Assembly (NCBI GenBank): GCA_009377505.1
Contig: WHTX01000002.1
Location: 1-53,891 of the forward strand
Direction: 5' to 3'
Origin: Acidimicrobiia bacterium
Lineage (GTDB): Bacteria; Actinomycetota; Acidimicrobiia; Acidimicrobiales; CAIXPF01
DNA length: 53,891 nucleotides
The position numbers were made by a program, and so were the translations under genes. Shown here one piece after another: positions 5,921 through 42,635 of this stretch. Every line of letters starts with the position of its first letter. Position 1 is the stretch's first letter. The notes beneath the pieces are model-generated. The model did not search any database. It was not told the origin of the DNA and saw only the letters and a list, made by a program, of their open reading frames with translations.

Positions 5921-7036
5921 TCACGACGTGGGCAGCTCCTGGCCGCCGACCAGCACCTGTGCCACCTCGAGCTCGTCGTCGAGCACCACCACGTCGGCCC
6001 GGGCGCCGGGCTCCAGCCGCCCGATGTCGGCGCGGCCGAGGAGCCGGGCGGGCGCCTCGGTCACCGCGGCGACGGCGCGCTCGAGGGGCAGGCCCACCGA
6101 CACGAGGTTGCGGACCGCGGCATCGAGCGTGCCGGTGCCACCGGCCAAGGTGCCGTCGAGGAGCCGGGCGGCACCGCCGCCCACGACCAGGGACGCTCCC
6201 GGGCGGCGGTGCTCGCCCTCGCCCAGGCCCGCGGCCCAGACCGCGTCGGTCACGACGACCAGGCGGTCACCGGCGGCGGCGGCCGACACCCGCAACGTGT
6301 CCGCGCCGACGTGGGCCAGGTCGGCGATGACGCCGACGAAGACGTCCCCCCTGGCCAGGGCTGCGCCCCCCACCGCGGCGTCGCGGCCGGTCATCGGCCG
6401 CTGCGCGTTCCACAGGTGGGTGACGGCCCTGGCGCCGGCATCGAAGGCGGCGTGGGCGGTGAGCCCGTCGCAGTCCGTGTGGCCGAGGGAGACCGCCACG
6501 CCCCGGCCGACGAGGTAGCGGACCAGCTCCAGGGCGCCGTCGAGCTCGGGCGCCAGGGTCACGAGCGCCACCGGCCCGGCGGCGAGGAAGGCCGCGGCGG
6601 CGTCGATGTCGGGTGCCCGCAGGTGCGCGACCGGGTGGGCGCCGGCGCGACGCTCGGACAGGAACGGCCCTTCGAGGTGCACCCCGAGGATGCGGGCGCC
6701 GGGCGGCGGCGTGCGCACCACGGCGCCGGCGAGGGCCAGCGCGGGCGGGTAGCGGTCGGGCGGGCTGGTGGGCAGGGTGGGGAGCCACCCGGTCACCCCC
6801 GTACTGGCCAGTACCGACGCGGCGTGGCCGTAGCCGTCCTCGTCGGTGTCGCCGAAGTCGACCCCTGCGAGCCCGTTCACCTGGACGTCGAGGAAGCCGG
6901 CACAGGCGGTGCCGCCCCGGCGGCCCGGCGGCCAGGCCGCGACCTCGACCACCCGCCCGTCGTCGACGACGACGTCACCGGGCACGACCGAGCCCTCGAC
7001 GACGCACGCCGACGCCCCCAGCCTCCTCCGCGCCAT
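5921..7036 (-). CDS. nagA: N-acetylglucosamine-6-phosphate deacetylase
   Basis: GFLDVQVNGLAGVDF, HLEGPFLS, VTLAPE, VSLGHTD, THLWNAQ, ADLAHV motifs. Start set at the internal ATG (MARRRLGASACVVEG) because the upstream extension is Arg/Gly-rich and not protein-like. Confidence 0.85.
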   Translation of the reverse strand: MARRRLGASACVVEGSVVPGDVVVDDGRVVEVAAWPPGRRGGTACAGFLDVQVNGLAGVDFGDTDEDGYGHAASVLASTGVTGWLPTLPTSPPDRYPPALALAGAVVRTPPPGARILGVHLEGPFLSERRAGAHPVAHLRAPDIDAAAAFLAAGPVALVTLAPELDGALELVRYLVGRGVAVSLGHTDCDGLTAHAAFDAGARAVTHLWNAQRPMTGRDAAVGGAALARGDVFVGVIADLAHVGADTLRVSAAAAGDRLVVVTDAVWAAGLGEGEHRRPGASLVVGGGAARLLDGTLAGGTGTLDAAVRNLVSVGLPLERAVAAVTEAPARLLGRADIGRLEPGARADVVVLDDELEVAQVLVGGQELPTS

Positions 7037-7091
7037 CACCTGCCTCGCCCCTCGACCGCCAGGAGTCTGCCAGTCCCAAGTGCCATGACCA

Positions 7092-7247
7092 CCAACGTTC
7101 GCCGCGTTCACGCCGGCCGAGCCCTGGGTGCGCTCGTTGCCGGCAGGCGGGCTCGCACGCACCCGCAGCCCCGAGCAAAGGCGCCGGCCGGCCGTCCCTC
7201 CCCCCACTGACCGCTACGGCCTCCCGGGCCCTTGGAACCACTGGTCC
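7092..7247 (+). repeat. Dispersed ~110-nt intergenic element, copy X (blocks ordered B then A, with a degenerate A upstream)
   Basis: Shares exact 18-, 17- and 16-nt strings with 31447-31571 (gaccgctacggcctcccg, tgggtgcgctcgttgcc, gggctcgcacgcaccc), plus a hairpin with the same 10-nt loop. Confidence 0.75.
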
Positions 7248-7260
7248 AGCGGCCGCGTCG

Positions 7261-8238
7261 CTAGCGCGCCGGCGCCGCGCCCACGGCGGCGAGGGCGGGC
7301 TGGAGGTGCTCCTGCCAGAAGTGGAAGAAGCCCTCCTGGTCGGGGCCGACCTGGTGGAAGTAGAGGTGGTCGTAGCCGGCGCCCACGTAGGCGCGGACCG
7401 ACTCGATCACCGGTCCGGGGTCGGGCCCGCACGGCGTGGGCCCGACGGCCTCCTGCTCCGAGACCATCTGCGCCGCCTCCTCGAAGTGCGTCCACGTCGG
7501 CAGGTCCTGGGCGAGCTGGCCGGTGATCCCACCGTTGGGCCACTCCCGGTGCACGGTCTGGCGGGCGGTCGCCTCGTCCGGCGCCCAGCACACGTTGAGC
7601 TGGGCGTACCGGGGACCGGCGCCGCCCGCGGCGGCGTAGGCCTGGATGAGGCGGTCCTCGGGCGCGTGGCCCCAGTAGCCGTCGCCGATGCGCCCGGCCA
7701 GCTGCGCCGCCTTGGGGCCGAAGCCCGACACGACGATGGGGACGGGCCGGGCCGGGGGGTCGAAGAGCTTGGCGTTCTCGACCTCGTAGAAGGCGCCGCT
7801 GTGGTCGACCGTGTCCCCCGTCCACAGCTGACGGACCACGTCGACGGCCTCCTCGAGCATGGCCAGGCGGACCTCGGGCCTCGGCCAGCGCTGGCCGAGG
7901 ATGTGCTCGTTGAGGGCCTCCCCGGTGCCCACGCCGAGGAAGAACCGGCCGCGGAGCAGCAGGGAGGTGGTCGCCGCGGCCTGGGCGATGATCGCCGGGT
8001 GGACGCGCATGATGGGGCAGGTGACCCCGATGCCGACGCCGATGCTCTCGGTCGCCTCCGAGATGGCGCCGAGCACCGACCAGACGAAGGGGCTGTGGCC
8101 CTGCTCGCTGACCCATGGGTGGTAGTGGTCCGAGATCGACACGAAGTCGAAGCCCACCTCTTCGGCCCGGGCGGCGTTGCGGACCAGGTCGGCGGGCGCG
8201 TGCTCTTCGCTGGACAGCGTGTAGCCGAACGACGTCAT
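7261..8238 (-). CDS. LLM-class F420-dependent oxidoreductase (G6PDH-family type)
   Basis: MTSFGYTLSSEEH...FDFVSISDHYHPW...GVGTGEALNEHILG is characteristic of this family. GAGGAAG RBS upstream. Confidence 0.85.
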   Translation of the reverse strand: MTSFGYTLSSEEHAPADLVRNAARAEEVGFDFVSISDHYHPWVSEQGHSPFVWSVLGAISEATESIGVGIGVTCPIMRVHPAIIAQAAATTSLLLRGRFFLGVGTGEALNEHILGQRWPRPEVRLAMLEEAVDVVRQLWTGDTVDHSGAFYEVENAKLFDPPARPVPIVVSGFGPKAAQLAGRIGDGYWGHAPEDRLIQAYAAAGGAGPRYAQLNVCWAPDEATARQTVHREWPNGGITGQLAQDLPTWTHFEEAAQMVSEQEAVGPTPCGPDPGPVIESVRAYVGAGYDHLYFHQVGPDQEGFFHFWQEHLQPALAAVGAAPAR

Positions 8239-8337
8239 GGCTTCCTCAGTACCCGACAGGCCCAGGCCCAGTCGTCGGGCTCAGCCAGTTCCGGCGCGGT
8301 TCGACAGTCCTCGGGGGCGGGGCTACCGTCGCTGGTG

Positions 8338-8436
8338 AACCCACGGGAGCCCGGCGCACCGGGCTGAGAGGGGGGCTGTCACCGGCCCCCGACCGTACGA
8401 ACCTGATGCGGGTCATACCGACGCAGGGAGACGGAC
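8338..8436 (+). promoter_or_regulatory. TPP (THI-box) riboswitch
   Basis: Conserved cores CTGAGA (8364-8369), ACCTGAT (8401-8407) and GGGTCATACCGACGCAGGGA. Overall layout matches actinobacterial thi riboswitches. Lies directly upstream of thiE. Confidence 0.85.
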
Positions 8437-8475
8437 GTCATCGATGTTCCCAGGCTCCACCTGATCACCCCACCG

Positions 8476-9090
8476 ATGGTGGGCGCCGAGGTGGTCGAGA
8501 CCACGGAGCGGGCGCTCGCCGCGGGCGCTCCCCTGGTGCAGGTGCGCGCCAAGGACGTGACCGACCGGGCCCGCTACGTCTGCGCCGATCAGCTCTCGCG
8601 GGCCTGCGTGGCGTCGGGGGCGCTGTGCCTGGTGAACGACCGGGTCGACGTGGCCCTGGCCGTGGCGGCCGCCGGTGTCCACGTCGGGGCCGACGACCTG
8701 CCGGTGGCCCTGGCCCGGCGGCTGCTCGGTGACGGCGCCCTGGTGGGGGCGACGTGCCGGGACGCCGAGGCCGCCCGTCGGGCCGTCGACGAGGGGGCGT
8801 CGTACCTGGGCGTCGGCCCGGCCTTCTCCACCACCACGAAGGCCGGCCTGCCGCCGCCCCTCGGCCTCGGGGGCATCGAGGCCGTGGCCTCGGCGGTGGA
8901 GGTGCCCGTCGTGGCCATCGCTGGCGTGACCGCGGAGCGGGTGCCGCGGTTGCTGGACGCCGGTGCCTGGGGCGTCGCCGTGGTCGCGGCCGTCTTCGAG
9001 GCCGACGACCCATCGGCGGCCACGGCCGAGCTGCTCGAGCTCCTCGGGGAGGGCGCCGGGGCGCGCCGGCCCCCAGGGCGGGCGCCGTGA
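8476..9090 (+). CDS. thiE: Thiamine-phosphate synthase (5' boundary unresolved, see finding)
   Basis: ThiE fold motifs (VQVRAKD, YLGVGPAFSTTTK, VVAIAGV). The first in-frame ATG/GTG/TTG is 8476, but a conserved first beta-strand (RLHLITPP) is encoded upstream of it. Confidence 0.8.
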   Translation: MVGAEVVETTERALAAGAPLVQVRAKDVTDRARYVCADQLSRACVASGALCLVNDRVDVALAVAAAGVHVGADDLPVALARRLLGDGALVGATCRDAEAARRAVDEGASYLGVGPAFSTTTKAGLPPPLGLGGIEAVASAVEVPVVAIAGVTAERVPRLLDAGAWGVAVVAAVFEADDPSAATAELLELLGEGAGARRPPGRAP

Positions 9091-10145
9091 GGGTGGCGGT
9101 CCTCGGAGCCGGGGTGATCGGCCTGTCCGTGGCGTGGCGCTGCGCCCGCCGGGGCATGGAGGTCACCGTGCACGACCCGGCCCCGGCGCGGGCGGCGGCG
9201 AACGTGGCCGCGGGGATGCTGGCCCCCGTCACCGAGCTGCACGCCGGCGAGGAGGCACTGCTCGCGCTCAACCTGGAGTCGGCCCGGCGCTGGCCGAGCT
9301 TCGCAGCTGAGCTGGCCGGGGACGCCGGGTGCGATCCCGGCTACGTCACGTGCGGGACCGTGGCCGTGGCTCGCGACCTCGACGACCTCCGCGTCCTCGA
9401 CGACCTCCACGCCCAGCAGGTGGGGCTCGGGCTGCAGGTCGAGCGGTTGAGCGGCAGGGAGGTCCGCCGGCGGGAGCCGGCGCTCGCCCCGAGCGCCCGT
9501 GGCGGGCTCTTCGTCGGCGGCGACCACCAGGTCGACAACCGGCGCCTGCTGTCGGCCCTGCGCCGAGCGGCAGGGGCGCGGGCGGTGGGCATGGTCACCA
9601 CCTCGCCCGAAGATCCCCCTGCCATGAGGGCGCTCGACGCCGACGCCGTGGTCGTGGCCGCCGGCTGGCGCTCGCCGGCGCTCGTGCCCGGCCTCGCCGT
9701 GCGGCCGGTGAAGGGCCAGGTCCTCCGCCTCCGCTCGGACGGGCGCTCGGTCCTGCCCGCCCACGTCGTCCGGGGCCTCGACGTCTACGTGGTCCCCCGC
9801 GGGGACGAGGTGGTAGTGGGGGCCACCGTCGAGGACGTCGGGGAGGACCTGACCGTTCGAGCCGGGGCGGTGCACGACCTCCTCCACGACGCCGCCGACC
9901 TGGTGCCCGGGGTCGCCGAGGCCGAGCTCGTCGAGTGCGGGGTGGGCCTGCGCCCGGCGACGCCCGACAACGCGCCCCTCATCGGCGCGCTCGACGAGCG
10001 GACGGTGGTGGCCACCGGCCACTATCGCAACGGCATCCTGTTGGCGCCCGTCACCGCCGACGCCGTGGCCGAACTGCTGGTCAGCGGGGAGGCGCCCGAC
10101 GTCGTCGCCCCGTTCCGCCCCGAGCGCCCCGCGGTGAGGAGGTGA
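9087..10145 (+). CDS. thiO: Glycine oxidase ThiO (FAD-dependent)
   Basis: GTGA overlap with the thiE stop. VAVLGAGVIGLSVAW dinucleotide-binding motif. Position between thiE and thiS. Confidence 0.85.
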   Translation: MRVAVLGAGVIGLSVAWRCARRGMEVTVHDPAPARAAANVAAGMLAPVTELHAGEEALLALNLESARRWPSFAAELAGDAGCDPGYVTCGTVAVARDLDDLRVLDDLHAQQVGLGLQVERLSGREVRRREPALAPSARGGLFVGGDHQVDNRRLLSALRRAAGARAVGMVTTSPEDPPAMRALDADAVVVAAGWRSPALVPGLAVRPVKGQVLRLRSDGRSVLPAHVVRGLDVYVVPRGDEVVVGATVEDVGEDLTVRAGAVHDLLHDAADLVPGVAEAELVECGVGLRPATPDNAPLIGALDERTVVATGHYRNGILLAPVTADAVAELLVSGEAPDVVAPFRPERPAVRR

Positions 10146-10149
10146 CGCC

Positions 10150-11745
<1,596 letters not shown>

Positions 11746-11752
11746 GGGCGTC

Positions 11753-12553
11753 GTGAGGGGCCCTCCGGTCGCCCTCACCGTCGCCGGGTCCGACTCCGGC
11801 GGGGGCGCCGGCGTCCAGGCCGACCTGAAGACCTTCGCCGCGTTCGGCGTGTTCGGCACGAGCGTGCTGACCGCCCTCACGGCGCAGAACACCACCGGGG
11901 TCAGCGGGGTCCACGTGGTCCCGCCGAGCTTCGTGGTGCAGCAGGCCGAGGCCGTCCTCGAGGACCTCCCCGTGGGCGCGGTCAAGACCGGGATGCTGGC
12001 CACGGCGGACATCGTCGCCGCCGTCGCCGGGCTCGCCGAAGGGGGCCGGCTCCCCAACCTGGTCGTCGACCCGGTCATGGTGAGCTCGACCGGCGACCGG
12101 CTCCTCGACGCCGGCGCTGTCGGGCGCTACCTGACCGGTCTCTTCCCGCACAGCCGGGTGATCACCCCGAACCTGCGCGAGGCCCAGGTGCTGTTGGGCC
12201 GCGAGCTGTGGACCCTCGACGACGTCCGGGCCGCCGCCGAGGACCTCTTCGACACCGGCCCGGAGGTCGTCGTCGTCAAGGGCGGCCATCCCACCGCCGA
12301 CTGCCCGGACGAGGCGGTCGACGTGTGGTTCGACGGCTCCGAGCTGCACGAGTTGCGGGCGCCCCGGCTGCTGACCACGAACGACCACGGCACGGGGTGC
12401 ACGTTCGCCTCGGCGGTCGCGGCGCGCCTGGCGCACGGCGACGACGTCCCCGGGGCGCTGGCCGCCGCCAAGGCCTACGTGGCCCGGGCGATGGCGGCCA
12501 GCAGCGGCTGGCGGCTCGGCCGGGGGCACGGTCCTCTCGACCACTCGTGCTGA
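11753..12553 (+). CDS. thiD: Hydroxymethylpyrimidine/phosphomethylpyrimidine kinase
   Basis: [33 protein letters not shown] motifs. Confidence 0.9.
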
Positions 12554-36749: not shown

Positions 36750-37117
36750 AGTCAGGATTTCTACAGCCGCCGGACGGGCCTCGGCAAGCGAGTCCCGCCG
36801 GCGCCGTCGGTCGGCCGGGCGCCCCGCCGCCCCGGGCCCCGAACGGCTACGGGCGACGTCGGCGCCGCCGAACCAGGCACCGGCGCCGCTCCTCGGGCCG
36901 GTGGCCCGGCGGGACCAGGACATCACAAACGCCATGACCATCCAGGGGCTGTCGGCGTGGGGCGGTCGGGCAGTGGCCCCGTCATCGGCCCCATGCTCGA
37001 CCTCCCGGGTACTGGGCATCTGCATCCTCTGTGACCGCCCTCGTGGGGCGGATGGCGGTCAACACGCCATGCCTGGCCTCCGAGAAACGCCGTGTCAACC
37101 GTTCGTCGCGTTGATCC

Positions 37118-37146
37118 TGGACGGCACGGAGGTCGCTTGCTAGAGT
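37118..37146 (+). promoter_or_regulatory. Candidate promoter for the tRNA-like RNA (-35 TGGACG, 17-nt spacer, -10 TAGAGT)
   Basis: Hexamers read by eye. The -10 ends 13 nt before the first G of the tRNA-like acceptor stem. Confidence 0.3.
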
Positions 37147-37159
37147 TCGGCGTCACTTG

Positions 37160-37227
37160 GGGGGCGTAGCTCAGTTGGGAGAGCACGGCTTGCCGAGACA
37201 GGGGTTCAAATCCCCTCCCCTCCACCA
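37160..37227 (+). tRNA. Atypical tRNA-Ala-derived RNA lacking an anticodon arm (68 nt including CCA); functional tRNA-like carrier or pseudogene
   Basis: Acceptor GGGGGCG/CCCCTCC with G3:T70. D arm GCTC-AGTTGGGA-GAGC. T arm AGGGG-TTCAAAT-CCCCT. A73 and CCA present. Only 15 nt (ACGGCTTGCCGAGAC) lie between the D and T arms. Confidence 0.6.
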
Positions 37228-37339
37228 AGTCCCACGACTTCTAGCTAGCCGTGACCCCGGAAGTCCGTGGCATGATCAGGCCGGCCGAGTCGGTCGACGA
37301 CTCGATGTCGTCAAAGCCCGACCCCGGAGGATGCCCGAT

Positions 37340-38662
37340 ATGCCGTGGACGATCGAGCAGATCGAACGACGTTTCCTCGGTTTCATGGAGGCCAACGGCC
37401 ACGTGGTGATCGAGGGCCACTCCGTGCGCTCTCCGACGGACGACGTCCTGTTCACGACGGCTGGGATGCACCCGCTCACGCCCTACCTCGGCGGCGAGCC
37501 GCACCCCGCCGGCCAGCGCCTGACCGATGTCCAGCGCTGCGTGCGCACCACGGACATCGACGAGGTCGGCGACGACACGCACCTGACGGTGTTCGAGATG
37601 CTCGGGAACTGGAGCCTCGGGTCGTACTTCAAGGAGACGGCCATCCCGCTGTCCTTCAAGCTCCTCACCGAGGAGTTCGGCATCGACCCGCACAGCCTGT
37701 ATGTCACCGTTTTCGCCGGTGACCGCGAGGTTCCCGTCGACGACGAGGCCCCGGCGATCTGGTCACAGGTCTTCACCGGAGCCGGGGTCGACCCGACCGG
37801 GCGGATCAACCCGCTGGGCGAGGAGGACAACTGGTGGTCGAACGGGCCCGTGGGCTTGTGCGGTCCCGACACGGAGATCTTCGTCTACGTCGGCGAAGAA
37901 GGCGTGCCCGTCTTCGGCGACAAACCGGAGTTCGTGGAGATCTGGAACAACGTCTTCATGACCTACGACCGCTCGAAAGACGGCGAACTGACCTCGCTGT
38001 CGCAACGAAACGTCGATACCGGCATGGGCCTCGAGCGCATCGCCATGTTCCTCAACCAGCACACGTCGGTGTGGCAGACCGACGAGCTGGCCGAGCTCGC
38101 CGAGGCCGTCGCCGCCACCCTCGGGACAAGCACCGCCGACCTCGACACCGACGGCACCCGCTCCCTGCGCATCGTCACCGACCACCTGCGAGCCGGCCTG
38201 GCCATCGCCGCCGCCGGCATCCAGCCTTCGGCCAGCCGCCAGGGCTACGTGCTGCGCAAGCTCGTCCGCCGCTCCCTGCGCCACGCCGAGCTGCTCAAGG
38301 GCACTGACGAGGGCCTCCTCGCCGCTTACGCGGCCGCGGCCGAGGCCGTGTCGCAGGTCGTCGGGCGGCGCTGGCCCGATGTCGGGGGCTCCCCCGACGG
38401 CGATGCCGCCCGGGCCGTGCTGAACAAGGAGGCCGGCCGCTTCGCCAAGACGCTGAAGTCCGGCGTCGAGCACCTCCACGACCTGGCCGAGCACGGTACG
38501 ACCTTCGACGGCGACCTGGCCTTCAACTTCGCCGACACGCTCGGCTACCCGGCCGAACTGGCCGCCGAGGAGGCGTCCAGGGTGGGCATGGCCGTCGACC
38601 CGGGCTGGGAGGCCCGCTTCGAGGAGCTCCGCGAGGAGCAACGGGCCCGCTCCCGCGGCTGA
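37340..38662 (+). CDS. Free-standing alanyl-tRNA-synthetase aminoacylation + tRNA-recognition domain paralogue (no editing domain, no C-Ala)
   Basis: GGAGG is 9 nt before ATG 37340. AlaRS motifs: FTTAGM, QRCVRTTDIDEVG, FEMLGNWSLGSYFK, GPDTEIF, EIWNNVFM, VDTGMGLERI, RIVTDHLRA, GYVLRKLVRR. 440 aa. Confidence 0.85.
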   Translation: MPWTIEQIERRFLGFMEANGHVVIEGHSVRSPTDDVLFTTAGMHPLTPYLGGEPHPAGQRLTDVQRCVRTTDIDEVGDDTHLTVFEMLGNWSLGSYFKETAIPLSFKLLTEEFGIDPHSLYVTVFAGDREVPVDDEAPAIWSQVFTGAGVDPTGRINPLGEEDNWWSNGPVGLCGPDTEIFVYVGEEGVPVFGDKPEFVEIWNNVFMTYDRSKDGELTSLSQRNVDTGMGLERIAMFLNQHTSVWQTDELAELAEAVAATLGTSTADLDTDGTRSLRIVTDHLRAGLAIAAAGIQPSASRQGYVLRKLVRRSLRHAELLKGTDEGLLAAYAAAAEAVSQVVGRRWPDVGGSPDGDAARAVLNKEAGRFAKTLKSGVEHLHDLAEHGTTFDGDLAFNFADTLGYPAELAAEEASRVGMAVDPGWEARFEELREEQRARSRG

Positions 38663-38689
38663 GCCCGGGACCGCCGGCGCGACGACTGG

Positions 38690-39478
38690 TCATCCCGCCC
38701 CCGGGCCCCAGCCGAAGGGGCCGCCGCTGCCACCGCCCCCCCAACCGAGCACCACGCCGGCGAGGGCGCCGACGGCAGCGACGACGACGAGGCCGATGGT
38801 CTCCGAGGGGCGCCTCGGCGTCCGGTCTGCCGGGTGGGGCGCGCCCGAGGCGAGCACGGCGCCCAGCCCGATGCCGATGGCCCACCCGGCCGGGTGGGTG
38901 AGGTCGTACACGAGGCCCGAGAACAGCAGCGGCCCGGGGAAGTAGCAGCTCAGCCCCACTCGCAGCCGGCGCCGCCACGCAACCGGCAGGTGGGCCGTCC
39001 ATGCCCCGAGCGTGGCGAACCCGCCCACCGACATGCCGAAGTCGATCGTGCCGGCCAGGTCTCGCGCCCAGGCCCAGTCGCCGTGGCGCAGGGGGTAGAG
39101 CAGGCCGCAGACGACGAGCACGCCGGCCAGCTGGCCCCCGACCAGCACCACGGCGGCGCGCCAGTGCCGGGCCACGTGCTCGTACAGCGCGATCCCGAGC
39201 AACGTGAACAGGGGCAAGGGCAGCGTCAGCGCCTCTACCAGGAACATGCCGCTGAGCAGGGCCCAGGGGCGCCCGTCGAGCAGCGGGGGCAGCCCGAAGC
39301 CGAGCCGGTCGACCTCGGTCGTCGTCACGTCGGGCCCGAGGGCGCGCGTCGCCCACGCCGTGGCCACCGCCGACGTGGCCACGGTCAAGAGCACGACGCG
39401 GTAGTCGAGCGGTGCCCGCAGGAGCGACCGCGCCAACCGCCGCCCGTCGTAGCGCGGCCGCGGCCGTGTCAGGGTCAT
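38690..39478 (-). CDS. Polytopic membrane protein, stand-alone paralogue of the N-terminal module of 39500-41944 (rhomboid-like, tentative)
   Basis: Collinear similarity to the fusion protein: GRPWALLSGMFL/GRWWTFFTGAFF; YEHVARHWRAAVVLVGGQ/YERRVGHWRALGVVVGGQ; DFGMSVGGFATLG/DLGISAGGFAVFG; DLTHPAGW/DVEHLVSW. Confidence 0.7.
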   Translation of the reverse strand: MTLTRPRPRYDGRRLARSLLRAPLDYRVVLLTVATSAVATAWATRALGPDVTTTEVDRLGFGLPPLLDGRPWALLSGMFLVEALTLPLPLFTLLGIALYEHVARHWRAAVVLVGGQLAGVLVVCGLLYPLRHGDWAWARDLAGTIDFGMSVGGFATLGAWTAHLPVAWRRRLRVGLSCYFPGPLLFSGLVYDLTHPAGWAIGIGLGAVLASGAPHPADRTPRRPSETIGLVVVAAVGALAGVVLGWGGGGSGGPFGWGPGAG

Positions 39479-39499: not shown

Positions 39500-41944
39500 T
39501 CAGCCGCGACCGGGCTTCGCCATGTCCCACGTCATCATCGCCCAGTCCTTGAGCCCGGCATCGGGCATGTAGGCACGAGCGATGGCGACGCCGATCTCGA
39601 GGAGCGTCGACTCGTCGGGGAAGACGAGGTACATGGGGCGGAACACGGGCTGGAACTTGGTCTTGAAGGCGTGCAGGGACCGGAAGCCGTAGTAGGGCTC
39701 GAGCGAGTCGCCGAGGAAGTCGAGCAGCTTCTGGAGCACCCGCTGGTCGCTGCTGCCGGCGAGGTGGTCGGGGGCCCTGGCGAGCGGGGCGGCGGAAAGG
39801 CTGATGAAGCGGAAGCCCTCGTCCTTGAACTCGAGCGCCGAGGCGCCGATCAGGTACTCCATCACCGGCCTGAAGCCCTCGTCCCGGCGCCGCATGAGGT
39901 CGAGCGTCCAGCCGATCACCTCGCCGTCCTCGCCGACAGGCATCCAGGACGTGAAGCCCTCGACCGTGGAGTCCTCGTCCATCGCCACGTGGAGCCGCAC
40001 CTCGGGGTCGTCGGCCTCGCGGAGGGTGCCCAAGGTGAAGCCCATCTCCGGCAGCGACTTGTCCGAGACCCAGCCGTTGCTGATGACGTGGAGCTGGTCG
40101 GTGAGCACGGGCTTGGCCTCGGCCCACCGTGTCTTCTCGAGGCGGATGTTCAGCTTGCCGGCCTTGTTCATGGCCGTGCGGACGTCCTGCCACGCCTTGC
40201 CCTTGAACTCGAGGCCCTCGAGGCCGACGACGCCGTCCTCGGCCACCTCCACGGCCTTCCAGCGCAGCTCGGGGGCGAGCGCCGCCGTCTCCTCGCTGGC
40301 GGCGAACATGCAGGGGAGCCAGCCTCGCTCGAAGCAGAAGGCGTCGAACTCCTGCATGGCCGCCAGCCTCTTGCCCGCCGGCCCCACGGGGTCGGCCAGG
40401 CACAGGGCCACCGAGCCCACCACCCTGAAGCCGATGGCGGTCTCGCCGTCGGCGGAGAACCACACCGTGTTGCCCCGCCACGTCAGCATCCACTCGATGG
40501 ACGAGGAGTGGTTGGCCAGCAGCAGCGCCCGCAGGCGGGCGTCCTGCTCGGGCTCGGGCCGGGGACGGCGCGAGGCGTAGACCAACCCGATCACCGTGAC
40601 GATGATGGCGCCGATCCACACGAGGGCGATCGAGCGGACGAACAGCTCGGCCGCGTCCGTCGCCGGCTCGATGTTGCCGCTCGTTGAGAAGAAGAGGCGG
40701 CTGACGAACTCAGCCACCATGTCCGCCGGCCGGGCCCGGGGGACGAAGTCGTCCTGGAGCACGGCGAAGCCGATTGCGGTGTAGGCGAAGAGCCCGAGGG
40801 CGACCTTGAGGAGCCGCCCACCGGCGCGGCGGAACGAGTGCTGCGGGGACCGCGCCGTGAAGGCCCGGTAGGTGACGAGCAGGAGCAGCAGCAGCCCGCC
40901 CGTGATGACCAGGTCCGCCGTGCGCTCCGAGCTGGCGTCCACGGCGAGGAGGCTCAGGAAGCTGAGGGCCATGAGCCCCGTCGTCAGGCCCCAGGCGAAG
41001 CGGCGCCCGCGCCGCAACCCGTCGGCCAGGGCCAGCCAGACGATCGAGGACACCACCAGGGCCAGCGTGACCCCTGACGGGTGGTAGGCGTCATCGCCGG
41101 CGTGGAAGGGGCCCCCGTTGCCCTGCCAGATGGCCGCCAGCAATGCCGACAACGCCGAGACGGCGACGACGAGCGCCACCACCGAGCGCTGCAGGCGGCG
41201 GCCGAACCGCACCGCCGGCTGCACGGGCCGCCTCCCGGCCAGGAGGGGGCCGGCAGCCATGCCCAGCGTCCAGGAGACGAGGTGCTCCACGTCCCACAGG
41301 AGGCCAGCGTTGAGGAGCATGGCGATCAGGTAGGCCGTGACCGCGGCGCGTACCCGCACCCGCCACGTGGGCTGCATGACCGCCGTCAGGGCGCCGAAGA
41401 CGGCGAAGCCCCCAGCCGAGATCCCGAGGTCGAGCTCCCTGCCGAGCTCGACGGCCCAGGTCCAGCCGGTGTCGCGGAACAGGTAGAGGAACCCAGCGGT
41501 GAGCATCGAGCCGAACGCCTGGCCGCCGACGACGACCCCCAGGGCCCGCCAGTGCCCGACGCGGCGCTCGTAGGTGCTCGCCGCCGCCACCAGCAGGACG
41601 AGGATGGGGATGTAGAGGACGATCTGGGGCACGAAGAAGGCCCCGGTGAAGAACGTCCACCAGCGGCCTTCCCGGAGGGCGGGCAGGCCGTAGGCCACGG
41701 CGTCATAGAGGCTGTCGCCCTCGCTGATCCCCCGCCAGGCCGCGCCGGTGACGAGCCCGGCGCCGACACAGAGGACGACGAGGGCGGCGGTGGCCGGGTA
41801 CCGGCGGACGACGCCTGACACCCAGGCGGCGGCACGCCCCGCCCGTCCAGTTGCCGCTCCCGGCGCCGGGGCCTCGGGCCCGTCGGCTGGAGGGCCACCG
41901 TGTTCGTCGAGGGTACTCGTCGGGCTCGCCACGTCGCAGATCAT
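39500..41944 (-). CDS. Membrane fusion protein: rhomboid-like module + TM region + C-terminal aminoacyl-phosphatidylglycerol synthase (DUF2156, MprF/LysX-type) domain
   Basis: The C-terminal ~350 aa has aaPGS hallmarks: VWFSADG, GWTLDLMRRR, PVMEYLI, FISLSAAPLA, YYGFRSLHAFKTKFQPVFRPMYLVF. Start at ATG 41944 is tentative. Confidence 0.8.
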   Translation of the reverse strand: MICDVASPTSTLDEHGGPPADGPEAPAPGAATGRAGRAAAWVSGVVRRYPATAALVVLCVGAGLVTGAAWRGISEGDSLYDAVAYGLPALREGRWWTFFTGAFFVPQIVLYIPILVLLVAAASTYERRVGHWRALGVVVGGQAFGSMLTAGFLYLFRDTGWTWAVELGRELDLGISAGGFAVFGALTAVMQPTWRVRVRAAVTAYLIAMLLNAGLLWDVEHLVSWTLGMAAGPLLAGRRPVQPAVRFGRRLQRSVVALVVAVSALSALLAAIWQGNGGPFHAGDDAYHPSGVTLALVVSSIVWLALADGLRRGRRFAWGLTTGLMALSFLSLLAVDASSERTADLVITGGLLLLLLVTYRAFTARSPQHSFRRAGGRLLKVALGLFAYTAIGFAVLQDDFVPRARPADMVAEFVSRLFFSTSGNIEPATDAAELFVRSIALVWIGAIIVTVIGLVYASRRPRPEPEQDARLRALLLANHSSSIEWMLTWRGNTVWFSADGETAIGFRVVGSVALCLADPVGPAGKRLAAMQEFDAFCFERGWLPCMFAASEETAALAPELRWKAVEVAEDGVVGLEGLEFKGKAWQDVRTAMNKAGKLNIRLEKTRWAEAKPVLTDQLHVISNGWVSDKSLPEMGFTLGTLREADDPEVRLHVAMDEDSTVEGFTSWMPVGEDGEVIGWTLDLMRRRDEGFRPVMEYLIGASALEFKDEGFRFISLSAAPLARAPDHLAGSSDQRVLQKLLDFLGDSLEPYYGFRSLHAFKTKFQPVFRPMYLVFPDESTLLEIGVAIARAYMPDAGLKDWAMMTWDMAKPGRG

Positions 41945-42059
41945 CGCATGGCCGTCGGTCGCCCTGCTCGGACCAGTGGCGCGATGACCGCATTGAGCGG
42001 TCGACGCCCCAGACCACGGGCAGCAGCGCCCTCGCCACCAGGGTGCGCAGGTGCTGTGG

Positions 42060-42635
42060 TCAGGACAGGGCGAGCGTGGTGACGCCTCGGCGCACGTCGA
42101 AGGCCCGGAAGATGTTGGCCACCCCTTCGAACAGCGCCCCGAAGCCCACCCAGATGACGAGCAGGGTGATCGACCGCCCTTCATAGCCAGCAGCCCAGAA
42201 GCCCACGCCGATCTCGGCGAGCCCGGCGACGAGGCCGAGCCACCAGAGCTCGGTGAGCCCCCGGCTCATGATGGCGACCATGACGGTGAAGACGCCCTTG
42301 AAGAGCAGGTACCAGCCGATGATGGCTGCGAGCACGAGGAAGGTGGCCTCGGGCCATGCCACGGCGACGATGCCGGTGAGGATGAAGAGCACGCCGACCG
42401 CGGCGCGCAACCACTTCCAACCCTCGATGACCGAGAGGGTGGCGAGGTAGACGAGGCCGTTGGCGATCATCGAGAAGCCGGCGAACAAGGCGATCGACCA
42501 GACCGTCCTCCACTCGAAGGAGAGCACGACCCAGCCGAACACCAGCCACAGGCCGCCGATGACGAGCAACACCCACCATTGTCCCTGGTCGCGCTCATCG
42601 GCAGCGACAGACGTCTGGCGTTCGGTGACGGCCAT
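42060..42635 (-). CDS. HdeD-family (DUF308) acid-resistance membrane protein
   Basis: Six-TM protein with a repeated WW/GW pattern (QWWVLLVIGGLWLVFGWVVL...), typical of HdeD. Confidence 0.75.
   Translation of the reverse strand: MAVTERQTSVAADERDQGQWWVLLVIGGLWLVFGWVVLSFEWRTVWSIALFAGFSMIANGLVYLATLSVIEGWKWLRAAVGVLFILTGIVAVAWPEATFLVLAAIIGWYLLFKGVFTVMVAIMSRGLTELWWLGLVAGLAEIGVGFWAAGYEGRSITLLVIWVGFGALFEGVANIFRAFDVRRGVTTLALS

What the first reader, a model, noticed from the sequence alone, without database searches (positions are those of the whole stretch)
37340..38662. Naturally truncated AlaRS: aminoacylation and tRNA-recognition domains only, ending where the engineered E. coli 461-aa fragment ends
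Seen in sequence:
- All class IIc AlaRS catalytic signatures are retained: FTTAGM, QRCVR, FEMLGNWSLGSYFK, GPVGLCGPDTEIF, EIWNNVFM, VDTGMGLERI.
- The helical tRNA-recognition region is also retained: RIVTDHLRAGLAIAAAGIQPS, RQGYVLRKLVRRSLRH, RFAKTLKSG, FNFADTLGYPAEL.
- The ORF stops right after ...FEELREEQRARSRG.
- No editing domain (HxxxH/CxxxH) or C-Ala domain follows in any frame. The next 27 nt run into a convergent gene.

Established knowledge: full-length bacterial AlaRS is about 870-900 aa, and its N-terminal ~440-461 aa suffice for G3:U70-dependent charging.

Inference:
- This is an active but non-proofreading alanyl (possibly Ser/Gly-tolerant) ligase.
- It is unlikely to be the housekeeping enzyme.
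- It is plausibly dedicated to the adjacent tRNA-like RNA.
Basis: partly seen in the sequence, partly recalled or inferred. Interest (0 to 1): 0.75.

Follow-up and report, generated by a model that had tools for sequence, protein, structure and literature searches.

The report
Editing-free mini alanyl-tRNA synthetase with own RNA
This gene encodes a naturally shortened alanyl-tRNA synthetase that keeps its charging site, lacks all proofreading parts, and sits beside a small anticodon-less tRNA-like RNA and a lipid-aminoacylating enzyme, which suggests a private alanine-delivery line that bypasses the ribosome.

Summary
Window 37340-38662 (+) encodes a 440-aa protein made only of the AlaRS catalytic and tRNA-recognition domains. 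It ends at the equivalent of E. coli residue ~438. No editing or C-Ala domain occurs in any frame of the 53.9-kb window.

It is not an artefact. About 80 protein clusters of 438-447 aa in Ilumatobacteraceae/Acidimicrobiia share the architecture, catalytic residues are essentially invariant, and dN/dS is 0.09-0.35.

A 68-nt tRNA-like RNA lies 112 nt upstream (37160-37227). It has G3:U70, A73, an encoded CCA, and D and T arms, but a 3-bp stem with a CUUG tetraloop replaces the anticodon arm. This RNA precedes the enzyme in 20 of 30 related loci and shows compensatory changes.

An MprF-type (DUF2156) aminoacyl-lipid synthase gene is linked in about 20 of 30 loci. In many loci an aspartate 4-decarboxylase, which makes L-alanine, follows it.

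A second, 39%-identical mini-AlaRS family occurs in Microbacterium, Agromyces, Humibacillus and others. It carries a 54-nt three-arm G3:U70 RNA as a separate gene in varied orientations.

Best reading: a dedicated, proofreading-free AlaRS charges a non-decoding carrier RNA for lipid alanylation. I found no publication describing this. No biochemistry was done, and the housekeeping alaS was not located.

The parts
37160..37227 (+). 68-nt anticodon-less tRNA-like RNA. Acceptor stem GGGGGCG/CCCCTCC with G3:U70 and a C6.C67 mismatch, A73, encoded CCA, D arm with G18G19, and T arm AGGGG-TTCAAAT-CCCCT. The anticodon arm is replaced by CGG-CTTG-CCG.
   Evidence: Rfam tRNA hit of 49 bits, above the gathering score of 29. 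ARAGORN calls no tRNA. Own covariance model scores 100 bits, E = 3e-21. Across 12 distinct homologues, 99.5% of cells are paired, G3:U70 is present in 12/12, and 5 pairs show compensatory changes; 0 of 500 shuffles reach the covariation score.
37141..37146 (+). Possible -10 element TAGAGT, 13 nt before G1 of the RNA. Weak, pattern only.
   Evidence: Read from the sequence. Homologous loci show TTGCGx-N17/18-TAnnnT 11-17 nt before G1. The consensus sigma-70 scan found nothing here.
37326..37330 (+). Shine-Dalgarno GGAGG, 9 nt before the ATG at 37340.
   Evidence: Sequence.
37340..38662 (+). Mini-AlaRS coding sequence (440 aa plus stop).
37340..38059 (+). Class II catalytic (aminoacylation) domain, about residues 1-240. 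It contains the QRCVR, FEMLGNW, EIWNNVFM and VDTGMGLER motifs.
   Evidence: Secondary structure of the model. Residue mapping to E. coli.
38060..38659 (+). Helical tRNA-recognition domain, about residues 241-440. D400-equivalent is kept (ADTLGYP). N303-equivalent is replaced by Ala (PSASRQGYVLRK).
38690..39478 (-). 262-aa integral membrane protein. It is a paralogue of the N-terminal rhomboid-like domain of the neighbouring MprF-like protein.
   Evidence: No Pfam hit. tblastn shows 37-50% identity to residues ~150-330 of the MprF-like proteins in many loci.
39500..41950 (-). MprF-like aminoacyl-lipid synthase. The mechanical ORF runs to 42184, but homology starts near residue 125-150. It has a rhomboid-like TM domain, a LysX-type TM region and a C-terminal LPG_synthase_C (DUF2156) transferase domain.
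   Evidence: PF09924, E = 6e-68. NCBIfam MprF and LysX hits fall below their cut-offs. PDB hits to AlaPGS 4v34 and LysPGS 4v36 are about equal. It belongs to a tight clade of ~89 clusters, many found on the same contigs as the mini-AlaRS.

Best explanation
The gene encodes a catalytically competent, proofreading-free paralogue of alanyl-tRNA synthetase. It consists only of the aminoacylation and acceptor-stem-recognition domains.

Its proposed substrate is the small RNA encoded 112 nt upstream. That RNA keeps everything AlaRS needs: a G3:U70 wobble pair, G2:C71, A73 and a CCA end. It also keeps the D/T elbow. It has no anticodon loop, so it cannot decode on the ribosome.

Proposed steps:
1. 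The enzyme activates L-alanine with ATP and esterifies it to the 3' end of this carrier RNA.
2. The alanyl-RNA then serves as aminoacyl donor for the linked MprF-type (DUF2156) membrane enzyme.
3. That enzyme transfers alanine to a membrane lipid (alanyl-phosphatidylglycerol, alanyl-diacylglycerol or a related lipid).

Because the carrier never enters translation, occasional Ser or Gly mischarging would be harmless. [quoted passage not shown]

**Shown:**
- domain content and intact active site;
- purifying selection;
- the RNA's structure and conservation;
- the gene linkage;
- an L-alanine-forming aspartate 4-decarboxylase in many related clusters.

**Inferred:**
- charging of the RNA;
- use of the product by the MprF-like enzyme;
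- the identity of the lipid;
- insulation from translation.
For: **The enzyme.**
- AlaRS fold and boundaries are confirmed.
- Catalytic and alanine-pocket residues are kept in 76-78 of 78 homologues, and D400 in 78 of 78.
- dN/dS is 0.09-0.35.
- About 80 clusters have the same length.
- There is no editing or C-Ala domain in the window or in related loci.

**The RNA in this clade.**
- It lies immediately upstream, on the same strand, in 20 of 30 loci of the clade.
- G3:U70 is invariant, and compensatory changes occur in the T stem and in the short hairpin.
- The hairpin is 3, 6 or 8 bp long and always closes with a YUUG tetraloop.
- The RNA is absent from the ~600-aa relatives' loci.

**Independent replicate.**
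- A second mini-AlaRS family of ~465 aa is 39% identical and ends at the same point.
- In Microbacterium, Agromyces, Humibacillus and others it has a 54-nt three-arm G3:U70 RNA with no anticodon arm at all, next to the enzyme in 6 of 7 loci.
- That RNA is usually divergent and once downstream. It has its own promoter-like elements, and three loci (L170, L175, L176) have a hairpin just after the RNA; T-rich tails follow in L170 and L176.

**The downstream enzyme.**
- An MprF-like gene lies within 6-10 kb in about 20 of 30 loci, despite rearranged gene order.
- The MprF-like proteins form an equally restricted clade, many on the same contigs.
- The same MprF type is linked in family 2 (L170, L173).

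**Alanine supply.**
- The neighbour first seen as an 'aminotransferase' is aspartate 4-decarboxylase, above the NCBIfam equivalog cut-offs (508-526 bits against 321).
- It sits directly after the MprF-like gene in 14 loci and after the mini-AlaRS in L174. It makes L-alanine.

**Precedents.**
- aaPGS enzymes recognise mainly the acceptor stem and the aminoacyl group (PMC6103681).
- LysX fuses a LysRS to MprF.
- The Tupanvirus mini-AlaRS charges acceptor-stem microhelices (PMC10036535).
Against: - No biochemical or expression data exist. Charging, RNA processing and lipid products are all inferred.
- Nine of 30 loci of this clade have no tRNA-like RNA within +-6-10 kb. There the enzyme must use an RNA encoded elsewhere or the ordinary tRNA-Ala.
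- Five of seven family-2 loci, and several family-1 loci, show no MprF-like gene within the flanks. The acceptor enzyme may therefore differ or act in trans.
- Rhabdothermincola salaria has the MprF type with no mini-AlaRS within 10 kb.
- In this clade the U70-reading Asn303 is replaced by Ala, so acceptor recognition may be altered.
- In this clade the RNA always lies in the 5' leader position, which also fits a cis-regulatory role.
- In L082 and L085 the RNA has a degenerate T loop and no encoded CCA.
- The window itself lacks the aspartate decarboxylase.
- The housekeeping alaS of these genomes was not located.
Confidence: 0.6

Rival explanations
1. LysX-like channelling with ordinary tRNA-Ala. 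The mini-AlaRS charges the cell's normal tRNA-Ala locally for the MprF-like enzyme. The upstream tRNA-like element is not a substrate carrier. It is a regulatory mimic in the mRNA leader, for example an operator that binds excess enzyme, as in ThrRS-type autoregulation.
For: - In this clade the RNA always lies directly 5' of the gene on the same strand. In L003, L082 and L085 it abuts the start codon with no Shine-Dalgarno sequence.
- Nine of 30 loci lack the RNA but keep the enzyme, and seven of those nine keep the MprF link.
- L082 and L085 have lost the encoded CCA and the canonical T loop.
Against: - In family 2 the homologous RNA is a separate gene on the opposite strand or downstream of the enzyme. 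It has its own promoter-like elements, and hairpins follow the RNA in L170, L175 and L176.
- The single-stranded ACCA end, A73, G2:C71, G3:U70 and the D/T elbow nucleotides are conserved. That is more than an operator would need.
- An editing-free enzyme that charges genuine tRNA-Ala would feed Ser-tRNA-Ala and Gly-tRNA-Ala into translation.
Confidence: 0.15
2. Antibiotic-resistance or back-up AlaRS. It would be an extra copy that keeps translation going when the housekeeping AlaRS is inhibited, as AcmD does in the ascamycin producer.
For: - Extra aaRS copies are often resistance genes (PMC5388404; AcmD in PMC12945691).
- Other ~440-aa AlaRS-like proteins lie in natural-product-like clusters with MccF-type peptidases, sulfotransferases and methyltransferases (L167, L168).
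Against: - There is no biosynthetic cluster around the window gene or its relatives.
- The conserved neighbours are the tRNA-like RNA, the MprF-like gene and aspartate 4-decarboxylase.
- AcmD is a full-length 871-aa enzyme.
- Loss of editing would be costly for a translational back-up.
Confidence: 0.07
3. AcmF-like transferase. The truncated AlaRS fold no longer makes Ala-AMP. Instead it uses pre-formed Ala-tRNA to alanylate a small molecule.
For: AcmF is also a truncated AlaRS-like protein with only the aminoacylation and tRNA-recognition domains (PMC12945691). An AcmF-like inactive paralogue exists in L167 (D236E, G238A, R243T).
Against: AcmF lacks most ATP- and Ala-binding residues and carries N219Q and D232E. 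The window protein and 76-78 of 78 relatives keep R70, E92, N213, D236, G238 and R243.
Confidence: 0.04
4. It is the organism's only AlaRS, or half of a split AlaRS with a free-standing AlaX-type editing protein encoded elsewhere.
For: - The housekeeping alaS of these genomes was not found with the tools available.
- Split AlaRS exists in Nanoarchaeum (PMC11392972).
- The Tupanvirus mini-AlaRS can replace yeast AlaRS.
Against: - Only 19 species genomes in the GTDB-wide scan carry the clade, including one Ilumatobacter species.
- Its nearest relatives are CPR-type enzymes.
- Family 2 occurs in well-studied genera such as Microbacterium and Agromyces, where NCBI labels it only 'related protein'.
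- L167 shows a mini form and a full-length 882-aa AlaRS on one contig.
- No editing domain lies within +-6-10 kb in the 33 related loci searched.
Confidence: 0.03
5. Pseudogene or assembly artefact: a full-length alaS cut short by a frameshift or misassembly.
For: Some related MAG loci (L014, L016, L017) do contain frameshifts.
Against: - About 80 clusters from independent assemblies end at the same residue.
- dN/dS is well below 1.
- No editing-domain remnant exists in any frame.
- A convergent gene starts 27 nt after the stop.
Confidence: 0.01

Closest known systems
Engineered E. coli AlaRS N-terminal fragments (461N; crystallised 1-441, PDB 3hxu)
   Same: Same two domains and the same fold: TM 0.84 to 3hxu, 36% identity, the same catalytic residues, and an end at E. 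coli residue ~438.
   Different: - It is natural, not engineered.
- It lacks the GGKH insert (E. coli 72-75).
- It has Ala at N303, Ala at Y399 and Leu at Y402.
Tupanvirus mini-AlaRS (PMC10036535)
   Same: [quoted passage not shown] It has lost at least one canonical G3:U70-reading residue, and it was shown to work on acceptor-stem microhelices.
   Different: - The viral enzyme is related to its eukaryotic host's AlaRS, serves translation with normal tRNA-Ala genes, and lacks both N and D.
- The window enzyme is bacterial and of the short CPR-like type. It keeps D400 and is paired with an anticodon-less RNA.
Short (~600-aa) AlaRS of Saccharibacteria/CPR (NCBIfam NF002436, PRK01584)
   Same: These are the closest sequence relatives, at 42-48% identity. 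They share the deletion of GGKH. NF002436 is the best NCBIfam hit, at 374 bits.
   Different: - Those enzymes continue into an editing core (PF07973) and keep N303.
- The window protein stops just before it and scores below the family cut-off of 529.
- No tRNA-like RNA was found in the seven short-type (~600-aa) relatives' loci searched.
LysX of Mycobacterium (MprF-LysRS fusion) and fungal ErdS (AspRS-DUF2156 fusion)
   Same: In both, a dedicated aaRS is coupled to a DUF2156/MprF-type aminoacyl-lipid transferase.
   Different: - Here the genes are separate, not fused.
- The aaRS is truncated.
- A dedicated non-decoding RNA is co-encoded. LysX and ErdS use ordinary tRNAs.
AcmF and AcmD of the ascamycin cluster (PMC12945691, PMC4257720)
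   Same: These are pathway-dedicated AlaRS paralogues in Actinobacteria. AcmF has the same two-domain truncation.
   Different: - AcmF is catalytically dead for activation and acts as an Ala-tRNA-dependent transferase.
- AcmD is a full-length 871-aa enzyme.
- The window enzyme is truncated but keeps an intact activation site, and it is not in a nucleoside-antibiotic cluster.
Non-translational tRNAs and tRNA-like acceptors (S. aureus non-proteogenic tRNA-Gly, B. cereus tRNA-Other, the tmRNA tRNA-like domain)
   Same: These are RNAs charged by an aaRS but diverted from normal decoding. The tmRNA tRNA-like domain is an anticodon-less G3:U70 acceptor for AlaRS.
   Different: - Those RNAs use the housekeeping synthetase.
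- They either keep an anticodon arm or, like tmRNA, still enter the ribosome.
- Here the RNA is 54-73 nt, has no anticodon loop, and comes with its own synthetase gene.

Membership tests
Alanyl-tRNA synthetase (class IIc), aminoacylation module | Sequence membership in Pfam PF01411 (tRNA-synt_2c). | tested here: met
   E = 2e-96, 324 bits against a cut-off of 30.3. Residues 8-439 match profile positions 2-429 of 552.
Alanyl-tRNA synthetase (class IIc), aminoacylation module | Catalytic and alanine-pocket residues (E. coli R70, E92, W171, N213, V215, D236, G238, R243; Met = 1). | tested here: met
   All are present in the window protein and in 76-78 of 78 clade members.
Alanyl-tRNA synthetase (class IIc), aminoacylation module | Three-dimensional fold of the catalytic plus helical tRNA-recognition domains. 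| tested here: met
   AF2 pLDDT 91.2 and pTM 0.88. Foldseek TM 0.84-0.87 to 9jdn, 1riq, 3hxu and 5knn.
Alanyl-tRNA synthetase (class IIc), aminoacylation module | G3:U70-reading pair Asn303 / Asp400. | tested here: inconclusive
   D400 is kept in 78 of 78. N303 is Ala in the window and in 72 of 78. The Tupanvirus enzyme lacks both residues yet still requires G3:U70.
Canonical full-length AlaRS (alaS equivalog: TIGR00344, NF002436) | Editing domain (HxxxH/CxxxH, PF07973) and C-Ala domain (DHHA1), with a score above the equivalog cut-off. | tested here: not met
   Scores are 330 bits against 457 and 374 bits against 529. No editing or C-Ala match occurs in six frames of the window or in the 33 related loci searched.
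Canonical full-length AlaRS (housekeeping role) | It is the only AlaRS of the genome and is present throughout the lineage. | not testable with these tools
There is only indirect evidence: patchy distribution (19 species) and the NCBI label 'related protein'.
AcmF-type Ala-tRNA-dependent transferase | Truncated AlaRS fold with loss of ATP- and Ala-activation residues (N219Q, D232E). | tested here: not met
   The truncation is shared, but the activation residues are intact.
LysX/ErdS-type aaRS-DUF2156 systems | aaRS covalently fused to the DUF2156 transferase. | tested here: not met
   The genes are separate and convergent. None of the 120 best homologues listed for either protein shows a fusion architecture.
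LysX/ErdS-type aaRS-DUF2156 systems | Dedicated aaRS genetically coupled to an aminoacyl-lipid synthase. | tested here: met
   An MprF-like gene lies within 6-10 kb in about 20 of 30 loci despite rearrangements. The two families have matching clade-restricted distributions and shared contigs.
tRNA (for the partner RNA at 37160-37227) | Cloverleaf with a 7-nt anticodon loop. | tested here: not met
   ARAGORN finds none. The anticodon arm is a 3-8 bp stem with a 4-nt YUUG loop, or is absent in family 2.
tRNA (for the partner RNA at 37160-37227) | Acceptor stem, D arm and T arm with elbow nucleotides; AlaRS identity set G3:U70, G2:C71, A73; CCA end. | tested here: met
   Rfam RF00005 scores 49 bits against a gathering score of 29. 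G3:U70 is present in 12 of 12 and 6 of 6 distinct sequences.

The most novel reading that the evidence does not exclude
Actinobacteria possess a natural, translation-independent aminoacyl-carrier system. A minimal AlaRS that has shed its editing and elbow-binding domains is paired with a private 54-73-nt RNA that keeps only the 'operational code' (G3:U70 acceptor helix plus elbow) and has no anticodon. The module is often completed by an alanine-producing aspartate 4-decarboxylase and a DUF2156 lipid transferase. It would be a living aaRS-minihelix-type pair, orthogonal to the genetic code, and it appears to have arisen or been retained in two mini-AlaRS lineages only 39% identical to each other.
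Probability: 0.5. Interest if true: 0.9.

Novelty: new variant of a known kind. Interest (0 to 1): 0.8.

Why it matters
AlaRS is described as keeping one four-domain 'prototype' architecture throughout biology. The Tupanvirus enzyme was reported as the natural exception (PMC10036535).

This work shows two bacterial families of catalytically intact mini-AlaRS. One is in Acidimicrobiia. The other is widespread in cultured Actinomycetes such as Microbacterium and Agromyces. Each family is co-encoded with a tRNA-like RNA that has G3:U70 but no anticodon.

If the pair works as proposed, it would matter in four ways:
- It is a natural example of Schimmel's acceptor-stem 'operational RNA code' used outside translation.
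- It offers a mechanistic reason for the loss of proofreading.
- It is a new way for cells to feed tRNA-dependent lipid aminoacylation without draining or contaminating the translational tRNA pool.
- It could give synthetic biology a ready-made orthogonal aaRS and mini-RNA pair.

Cultured hosts carry the second (family-2) version of the system, so it is directly testable.

Tried and rejected
**Housekeeping alaS not located.**
- Contig look-ups return only +-10 kb.
- Cluster look-ups of full-length relatives gave no organism names.

**Split gene rejected.** E. coli AlaRS residues beyond 423 match nothing in the 33 related loci searched.

**Promoter scan.** The sigma-70 consensus scan of 36900-39000 found no promoter, and its only terminator-like site lies inside the CDS on the minus strand. 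The promoter statement therefore rests on by-eye TTGCGx-N17/18-TAnnnT patterns in homologous loci.

**Search for the RNA where it seemed missing.**
- The covariance model and a relaxed regex found no RNA in L001, L002, L008-L011, L018, L083 or L165.
- A 22.5-bit, 43-nt minihelix-like hit in L001 (9297-9339, minus strand) lacks G3:U70 and a CCA end. I treated it as unconvincing.

**Specificity of the MprF-like enzyme.** PDB sequence comparison does not separate Ala- from Lys-type synthases (4v34 against 4v36, E = 4e-21 against 7e-20).

**Other intervening or neighbouring genes.** A P-type ATPase, DUF2207 and an MFS transporter show no consistent pattern.

**Literature.** Ten full-text searches found no description of a bacterial mini-AlaRS with a tRNA-like partner or an MprF link.
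Full report
**1. The observation**

The window is about 73% G+C. Its closest homologues come from Ilumatobacteraceae/Acidimicrobiia.

The ORF listed as 37157-38662 (+) has a GGAGG at 37326-37330, 9 nt before the ATG at 37340. This gives a 440-aa product.

- Pfam PF01411 covers residues 8-439 and aligns to profile positions 2-429 of 552. The match stops where the editing part of the profile begins (E = 2e-96).
- NCBIfam's best models are the short AlaRS family NF002436 (374 bits) and alaS TIGR00344 (330 bits). Both fall below their equivalog cut-offs of 529 and 457 because the C-terminal half is missing.
- The best solved-structure relatives are N-terminal catalytic fragments of AlaRS.
- An AlphaFold2 model built on 35 homologues has mean pLDDT 91.2. 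It superposes on those fragments with TM 0.84-0.87.

Aligned to E. coli AlaRS, the protein ends at residue ~438. That is the end of the crystallised 1-441 fragment and about 23 residues before the end of the classical 461-aa fragment.

The stop codon is followed by 27 nt and then by the stop of a convergent gene.

An HMM of the editing region of the nearest 600-aa relatives, and E. coli residues 445-876, find nothing in six-frame translations of the whole window.

**2. It is a real, selected gene family**

A search of 5.8 billion proteins found about 80 clusters of 438-447 aa at 63-85% identity. NCBI names them 'alanine--tRNA ligase-related protein' in Ilumatobacteraceae and Acidimicrobiales. 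A sharp drop then leads to ~606-aa AlaRS of Saccharibacteria/CPR at 42-48% identity. At 50% clustering the clade collapses to one representative, at 707 bits against 344 for the next.

In E. coli numbering (Met = 1), R70, E92, W171, N213, V215, D236, G238 and R243 are kept in 76-78 of 78 members. The clade shares the GGKH(72-75) deletion with the CPR type.

Pairwise dN/dS is 0.09-0.35.

Two features are clade-specific. The U70-contacting Asn303 is Ala in 72 of 78 members, whereas the CPR relatives have Asn in 33 of 33. Tyr399 is Ala in 78 of 78. The G3-contacting Asp400 is invariant.

The alanine pocket is unchanged, so the amino acid is most likely still alanine. The Ser and Gly misactivation that all AlaRS show is established knowledge and was not tested here.

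No residue beyond E. coli position 423 matches anywhere within +-6-10 kb in the 33 related loci searched. The editing half is therefore not encoded alongside.

**3. The partner RNA**

Rfam's tRNA model hits 37160-37224 at 49 bits, yet ARAGORN calls no tRNA in the window. The sequence is:

GGGGGCG-TA-GCTC-AGTTGGGA-GAGC-A-CGG-CTTG-CCG-AGAC-AGGGG-TTCAAAT-CCCCT-CCCCTCC-A-CCA

It has:
- a G3:U70 pair, G2:C71, A73 and an encoded CCA;
- a normal D arm with G18G19;
- a normal T arm;
- a 3-bp stem closed by a CUUG tetraloop where the anticodon arm should be.

There is no anticodon.

I built a covariance model. It finds this RNA immediately upstream of the mini-AlaRS, on the same strand, in 20 of 30 clade loci drawn from genomes and metagenomes. 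It finds none in the seven short-type (~600-aa) relatives' loci searched.

Across 12 distinct sequences:
- 99.5% of cells are paired;
- G3:U70 is present in 12 of 12;
- five pairs carry compensatory changes, three in the T stem and two in the hairpin;
- 0 of 500 shuffles reach the covariation score, and the shifted-register controls collapse.

The hairpin is 3 bp in most loci, 6 bp in L163 and 8 bp in L003. It always closes with a YUUG tetraloop.

The RNA changes far more slowly than synonymous sites of the adjacent gene. For example, the window and L012 differ at about 3 of 68 RNA positions, against dS = 0.7.

Nine loci have no such RNA within the flanks, and one locus (L007) has too little upstream sequence to judge. 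These fall in a few subclades of the protein tree.

In L003, L082 and L085 the RNA abuts the start codon with no Shine-Dalgarno sequence. In L082 and L085 it has a variant T loop and no encoded CCA.

**4. The linked transferase and alanine supply**

Two genes converge on the mini-AlaRS.

- A 262-aa membrane protein at 38690-39478.
- An MprF-like protein at 39500-41950 (the mechanical ORF runs to 42184). It has a C-terminal LPG_synthase_C/DUF2156 domain (E = 6e-68) and N-terminal rhomboid-like and LysX-type TM regions.

The 262-aa protein is a paralogue of the MprF-like N-terminal domain.

An orthologous MprF-like gene lies within the fetched flanks in about 20 of 30 loci. Its arrangement varies: adjacent and convergent, divergent, or 4-5 kb away.

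Its homologues form an equally restricted clade of ~89 clusters at 52-81% identity. The next relatives are at 40% or below. Many of these clusters sit on contigs with the same longest-contig lengths as the mini-AlaRS clusters.

The gene that Pfam calls an aminotransferase turned out to be aspartate 4-decarboxylase, which forms L-alanine. It scores 508-526 bits on NF006755 against a cut-off of 321, and 482-500 bits on TIGR03801 against 435. It sits directly after the MprF-like gene in 14 loci. The window itself lacks it.

A PF00756 esterase follows the mini-AlaRS in L163, L173 and L175. This recalls the esterase PesT that accompanies the Corynebacterium alanyl-diacylglycerol synthase (PMC6103681).

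**5. An independent replicate in cultured Actinomycetes**

One MprF-clade member (L170) is followed by the decarboxylase and then by a 459-aa AlaRS-like gene. That gene is only 39% identical to the window protein but ends at the same ...QRARSR boundary.

Its family has more than 120 clusters of ~465 aa at 74-88% identity. It includes Microbacterium, Agromyces, Terrabacter, Humibacillus and Nakamurella, and again carries the label 'alanine--tRNA ligase-related protein'. L170's protein keeps both N303 and D400.

Next to it in 6 of 7 loci is a 54-nt RNA, GGGGGAU-GCGC-ACUUGGG-GCGC-CCCG-CCAGG-UUCAACU-CCUGG-GUCCUCC-ACCA. It has G3:U70 in 6 of 6 sequences, a D-like hairpin, a T arm and no anticodon arm at all.

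- It lies on the opposite strand upstream of the enzyme in five loci and downstream in one.
- It has TTGCxx-N17-TAnnnT promoter-like elements.
- In L170, L175 and L176 a hairpin immediately follows the RNA; T-rich tails follow in L170 and L176.

The RNA is therefore an independent gene that travels with the enzyme, not merely a leader.

MprF-like genes are close by in 2 of the 7 loci (L170, L173).

A neighbour-joining tree places the two mini families in different parts of the short-type AlaRS radiation. This hints at two truncation events, but the method is crude.

**6. Mechanism and rivals**

The best-supported reading is a dedicated line with up to four parts. Aspartate 4-decarboxylase supplies alanine, where present. 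The mini-AlaRS activates it and loads the anticodon-less carrier RNA through G3:U70 and A73. The DUF2156 enzyme uses the alanyl-RNA to alanylate a membrane lipid.

Published work supports each step in principle:
- aaPGS enzymes read mainly the acceptor stem and the aminoacyl moiety, and LysX couples a LysRS to MprF (PMC6103681);
- a mini-AlaRS can charge acceptor microhelices efficiently (PMC10036535).

Loss of editing makes sense if the product never reaches the ribosome.

The rivals are:
- a regulatory leader mimic with ordinary tRNA-Ala as substrate. This is weakened by the family-2 gene arrangements;
- a resistance or back-up AlaRS. There is no biosynthetic context, and AcmD is full length;
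- an AcmF-like transferase. The active site is intact here, unlike AcmF;
- a sole or split AlaRS. This is not directly testable here, but the distribution argues against it;
- an artefact, which is excluded.

**7. Comparison and novelty**

Other truncated AlaRS-like proteins exist.
- AcmF is a 370-aa inactive transferase.
- ~440-aa forms with intact sites occur in clusters with MccF-type peptidases, methyltransferases, a sulfotransferase and, in L167, an AcmF-like dead paralogue plus a full-length 882-aa AlaRS.

A two-domain AlaRS is therefore not unprecedented.

What I could not find in ten literature searches is any description of a bacterial, catalytically intact mini-AlaRS family, of its anticodon-less G3:U70 RNA partner, or of their link to MprF-type enzymes and aspartate 4-decarboxylase.

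I rate it a new variant of a known kind (a pathway-dedicated aaRS paralogue). The RNA partner is the most novel element.

**8. Limits**

- Everything downstream of sequence is inference.
- The housekeeping alaS was not located.
- Family-2 covariation rests on six sequences with one compensatory pair.
- The lipid product is unknown.
- Locus counts depend on flank lengths and include a few frameshifted MAG assemblies.

Noticed in passing
window 8335-8446 (+): TPP riboswitch (Rfam RF00059, 59.4 bits against a gathering score of 54.3). It is unrelated to the finding.
   Followed up: no
L170:13850-15229(-), L171-L176 (gene at 8001-9400): A second mini-AlaRS family of ~465 aa, 39% identical to the window protein, is widespread in cultured Actinomycetes (Microbacterium, Agromyces, Terrabacter, Humibacillus, Nakamurella). 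NCBI names it 'alanine--tRNA ligase-related protein'.
   Followed up: partly
L170:15354-15407(+), L171:9475-9528(+), L173:7916-7863(-), L174:7904-7854(-), L175:7908-7858(-), L176:7910-7860(-): A 54-nt three-arm tRNA-like RNA (G3:U70, no anticodon arm) is encoded as a separate gene next to the family-2 mini-AlaRS. It has its own promoter-like elements, and hairpins follow the RNA in L170, L175 and L176. None was found in the Terrabacter locus L172.
   Followed up: partly
L174:9400-11001, L170:12283-13839, L012:9663-11189(-) and homologues in L001, L002, L007, L013-L017, L052, L081, L083, L084: Aspartate 4-decarboxylase, which forms L-alanine and scores above the NCBIfam equivalog cut-offs, is a recurrent member of the cluster. 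It usually lies directly after the MprF-like gene. It is absent from the window.
   Followed up: partly
L163:11369-12664, L173:9433-10731, L175:9445-10743: A ~432-aa PF00756 'putative esterase' immediately follows the mini-AlaRS in both families. It recalls the esterase PesT that accompanies the Corynebacterium Ala-DAG synthase.
   Followed up: no
L163:12669-13367(-); homologues in L001, L002, L003, L010, L011, L018, L082, L083: A conserved ~230-aa multi-pass membrane protein with no Pfam or NCBIfam match recurs next to the mini-AlaRS in 9 loci. It is not in the window.
   Followed up: partly
L167 (1793-11012) and L168 (1232-6775): Other ~440-aa AlaRS-like proteins with intact catalytic residues lie in natural-product-like clusters. 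L167 has an AcmF-like dead paralogue (D236E, G238A, R243T), an AspRS-like gene, methyltransferases, an MccF-type Peptidase_S66 and a full-length 882-aa AlaRS. L168 has a sulfotransferase, methyltransferases and Peptidase_S66.
   Followed up: partly
window 38690-39478 (-) and 39500-42184 (-): The 262-aa membrane protein is a stand-alone copy of the rhomboid-like N-terminal domain of the adjacent MprF-like protein. The mechanical ORF of the MprF-like gene is over-extended at its 5' end by about 80-150 codons of low-complexity sequence.
   Followed up: partly
L003:5929-6001, L082:618-689, L085:1273-1368: In one subclade the tRNA-like RNA abuts or overlaps the start codon with no Shine-Dalgarno sequence, so 3' processing would leave a leaderless mRNA. 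L082 and L085 have a variant T loop (UGCAAGU) and no encoded CCA.
   Followed up: no
L001:9297-9339 (-): A 43-nt minihelix-like sequence (acceptor plus T arm only, 22.5 bits) occurs in a locus that lacks the 68-nt RNA. It has no G3:U70 and ends ACGA. It is probably not significant.
   Followed up: partly
L014, L016, L017 (gene at 6001-7330): The mini-AlaRS reading frame is broken in these long-read MAG assemblies. tblastn splits it into two segments, which probably reflects sequencing indels rather than pseudogenes.
   Followed up: no
L169 (Rhabdothermincola salaria, gene at 10001-12397): A cultured Acidimicrobiia species carries the same MprF-like subtype (60% identity) with no mini-AlaRS, decarboxylase or tRNA-like RNA within 10 kb.
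   Followed up: partly
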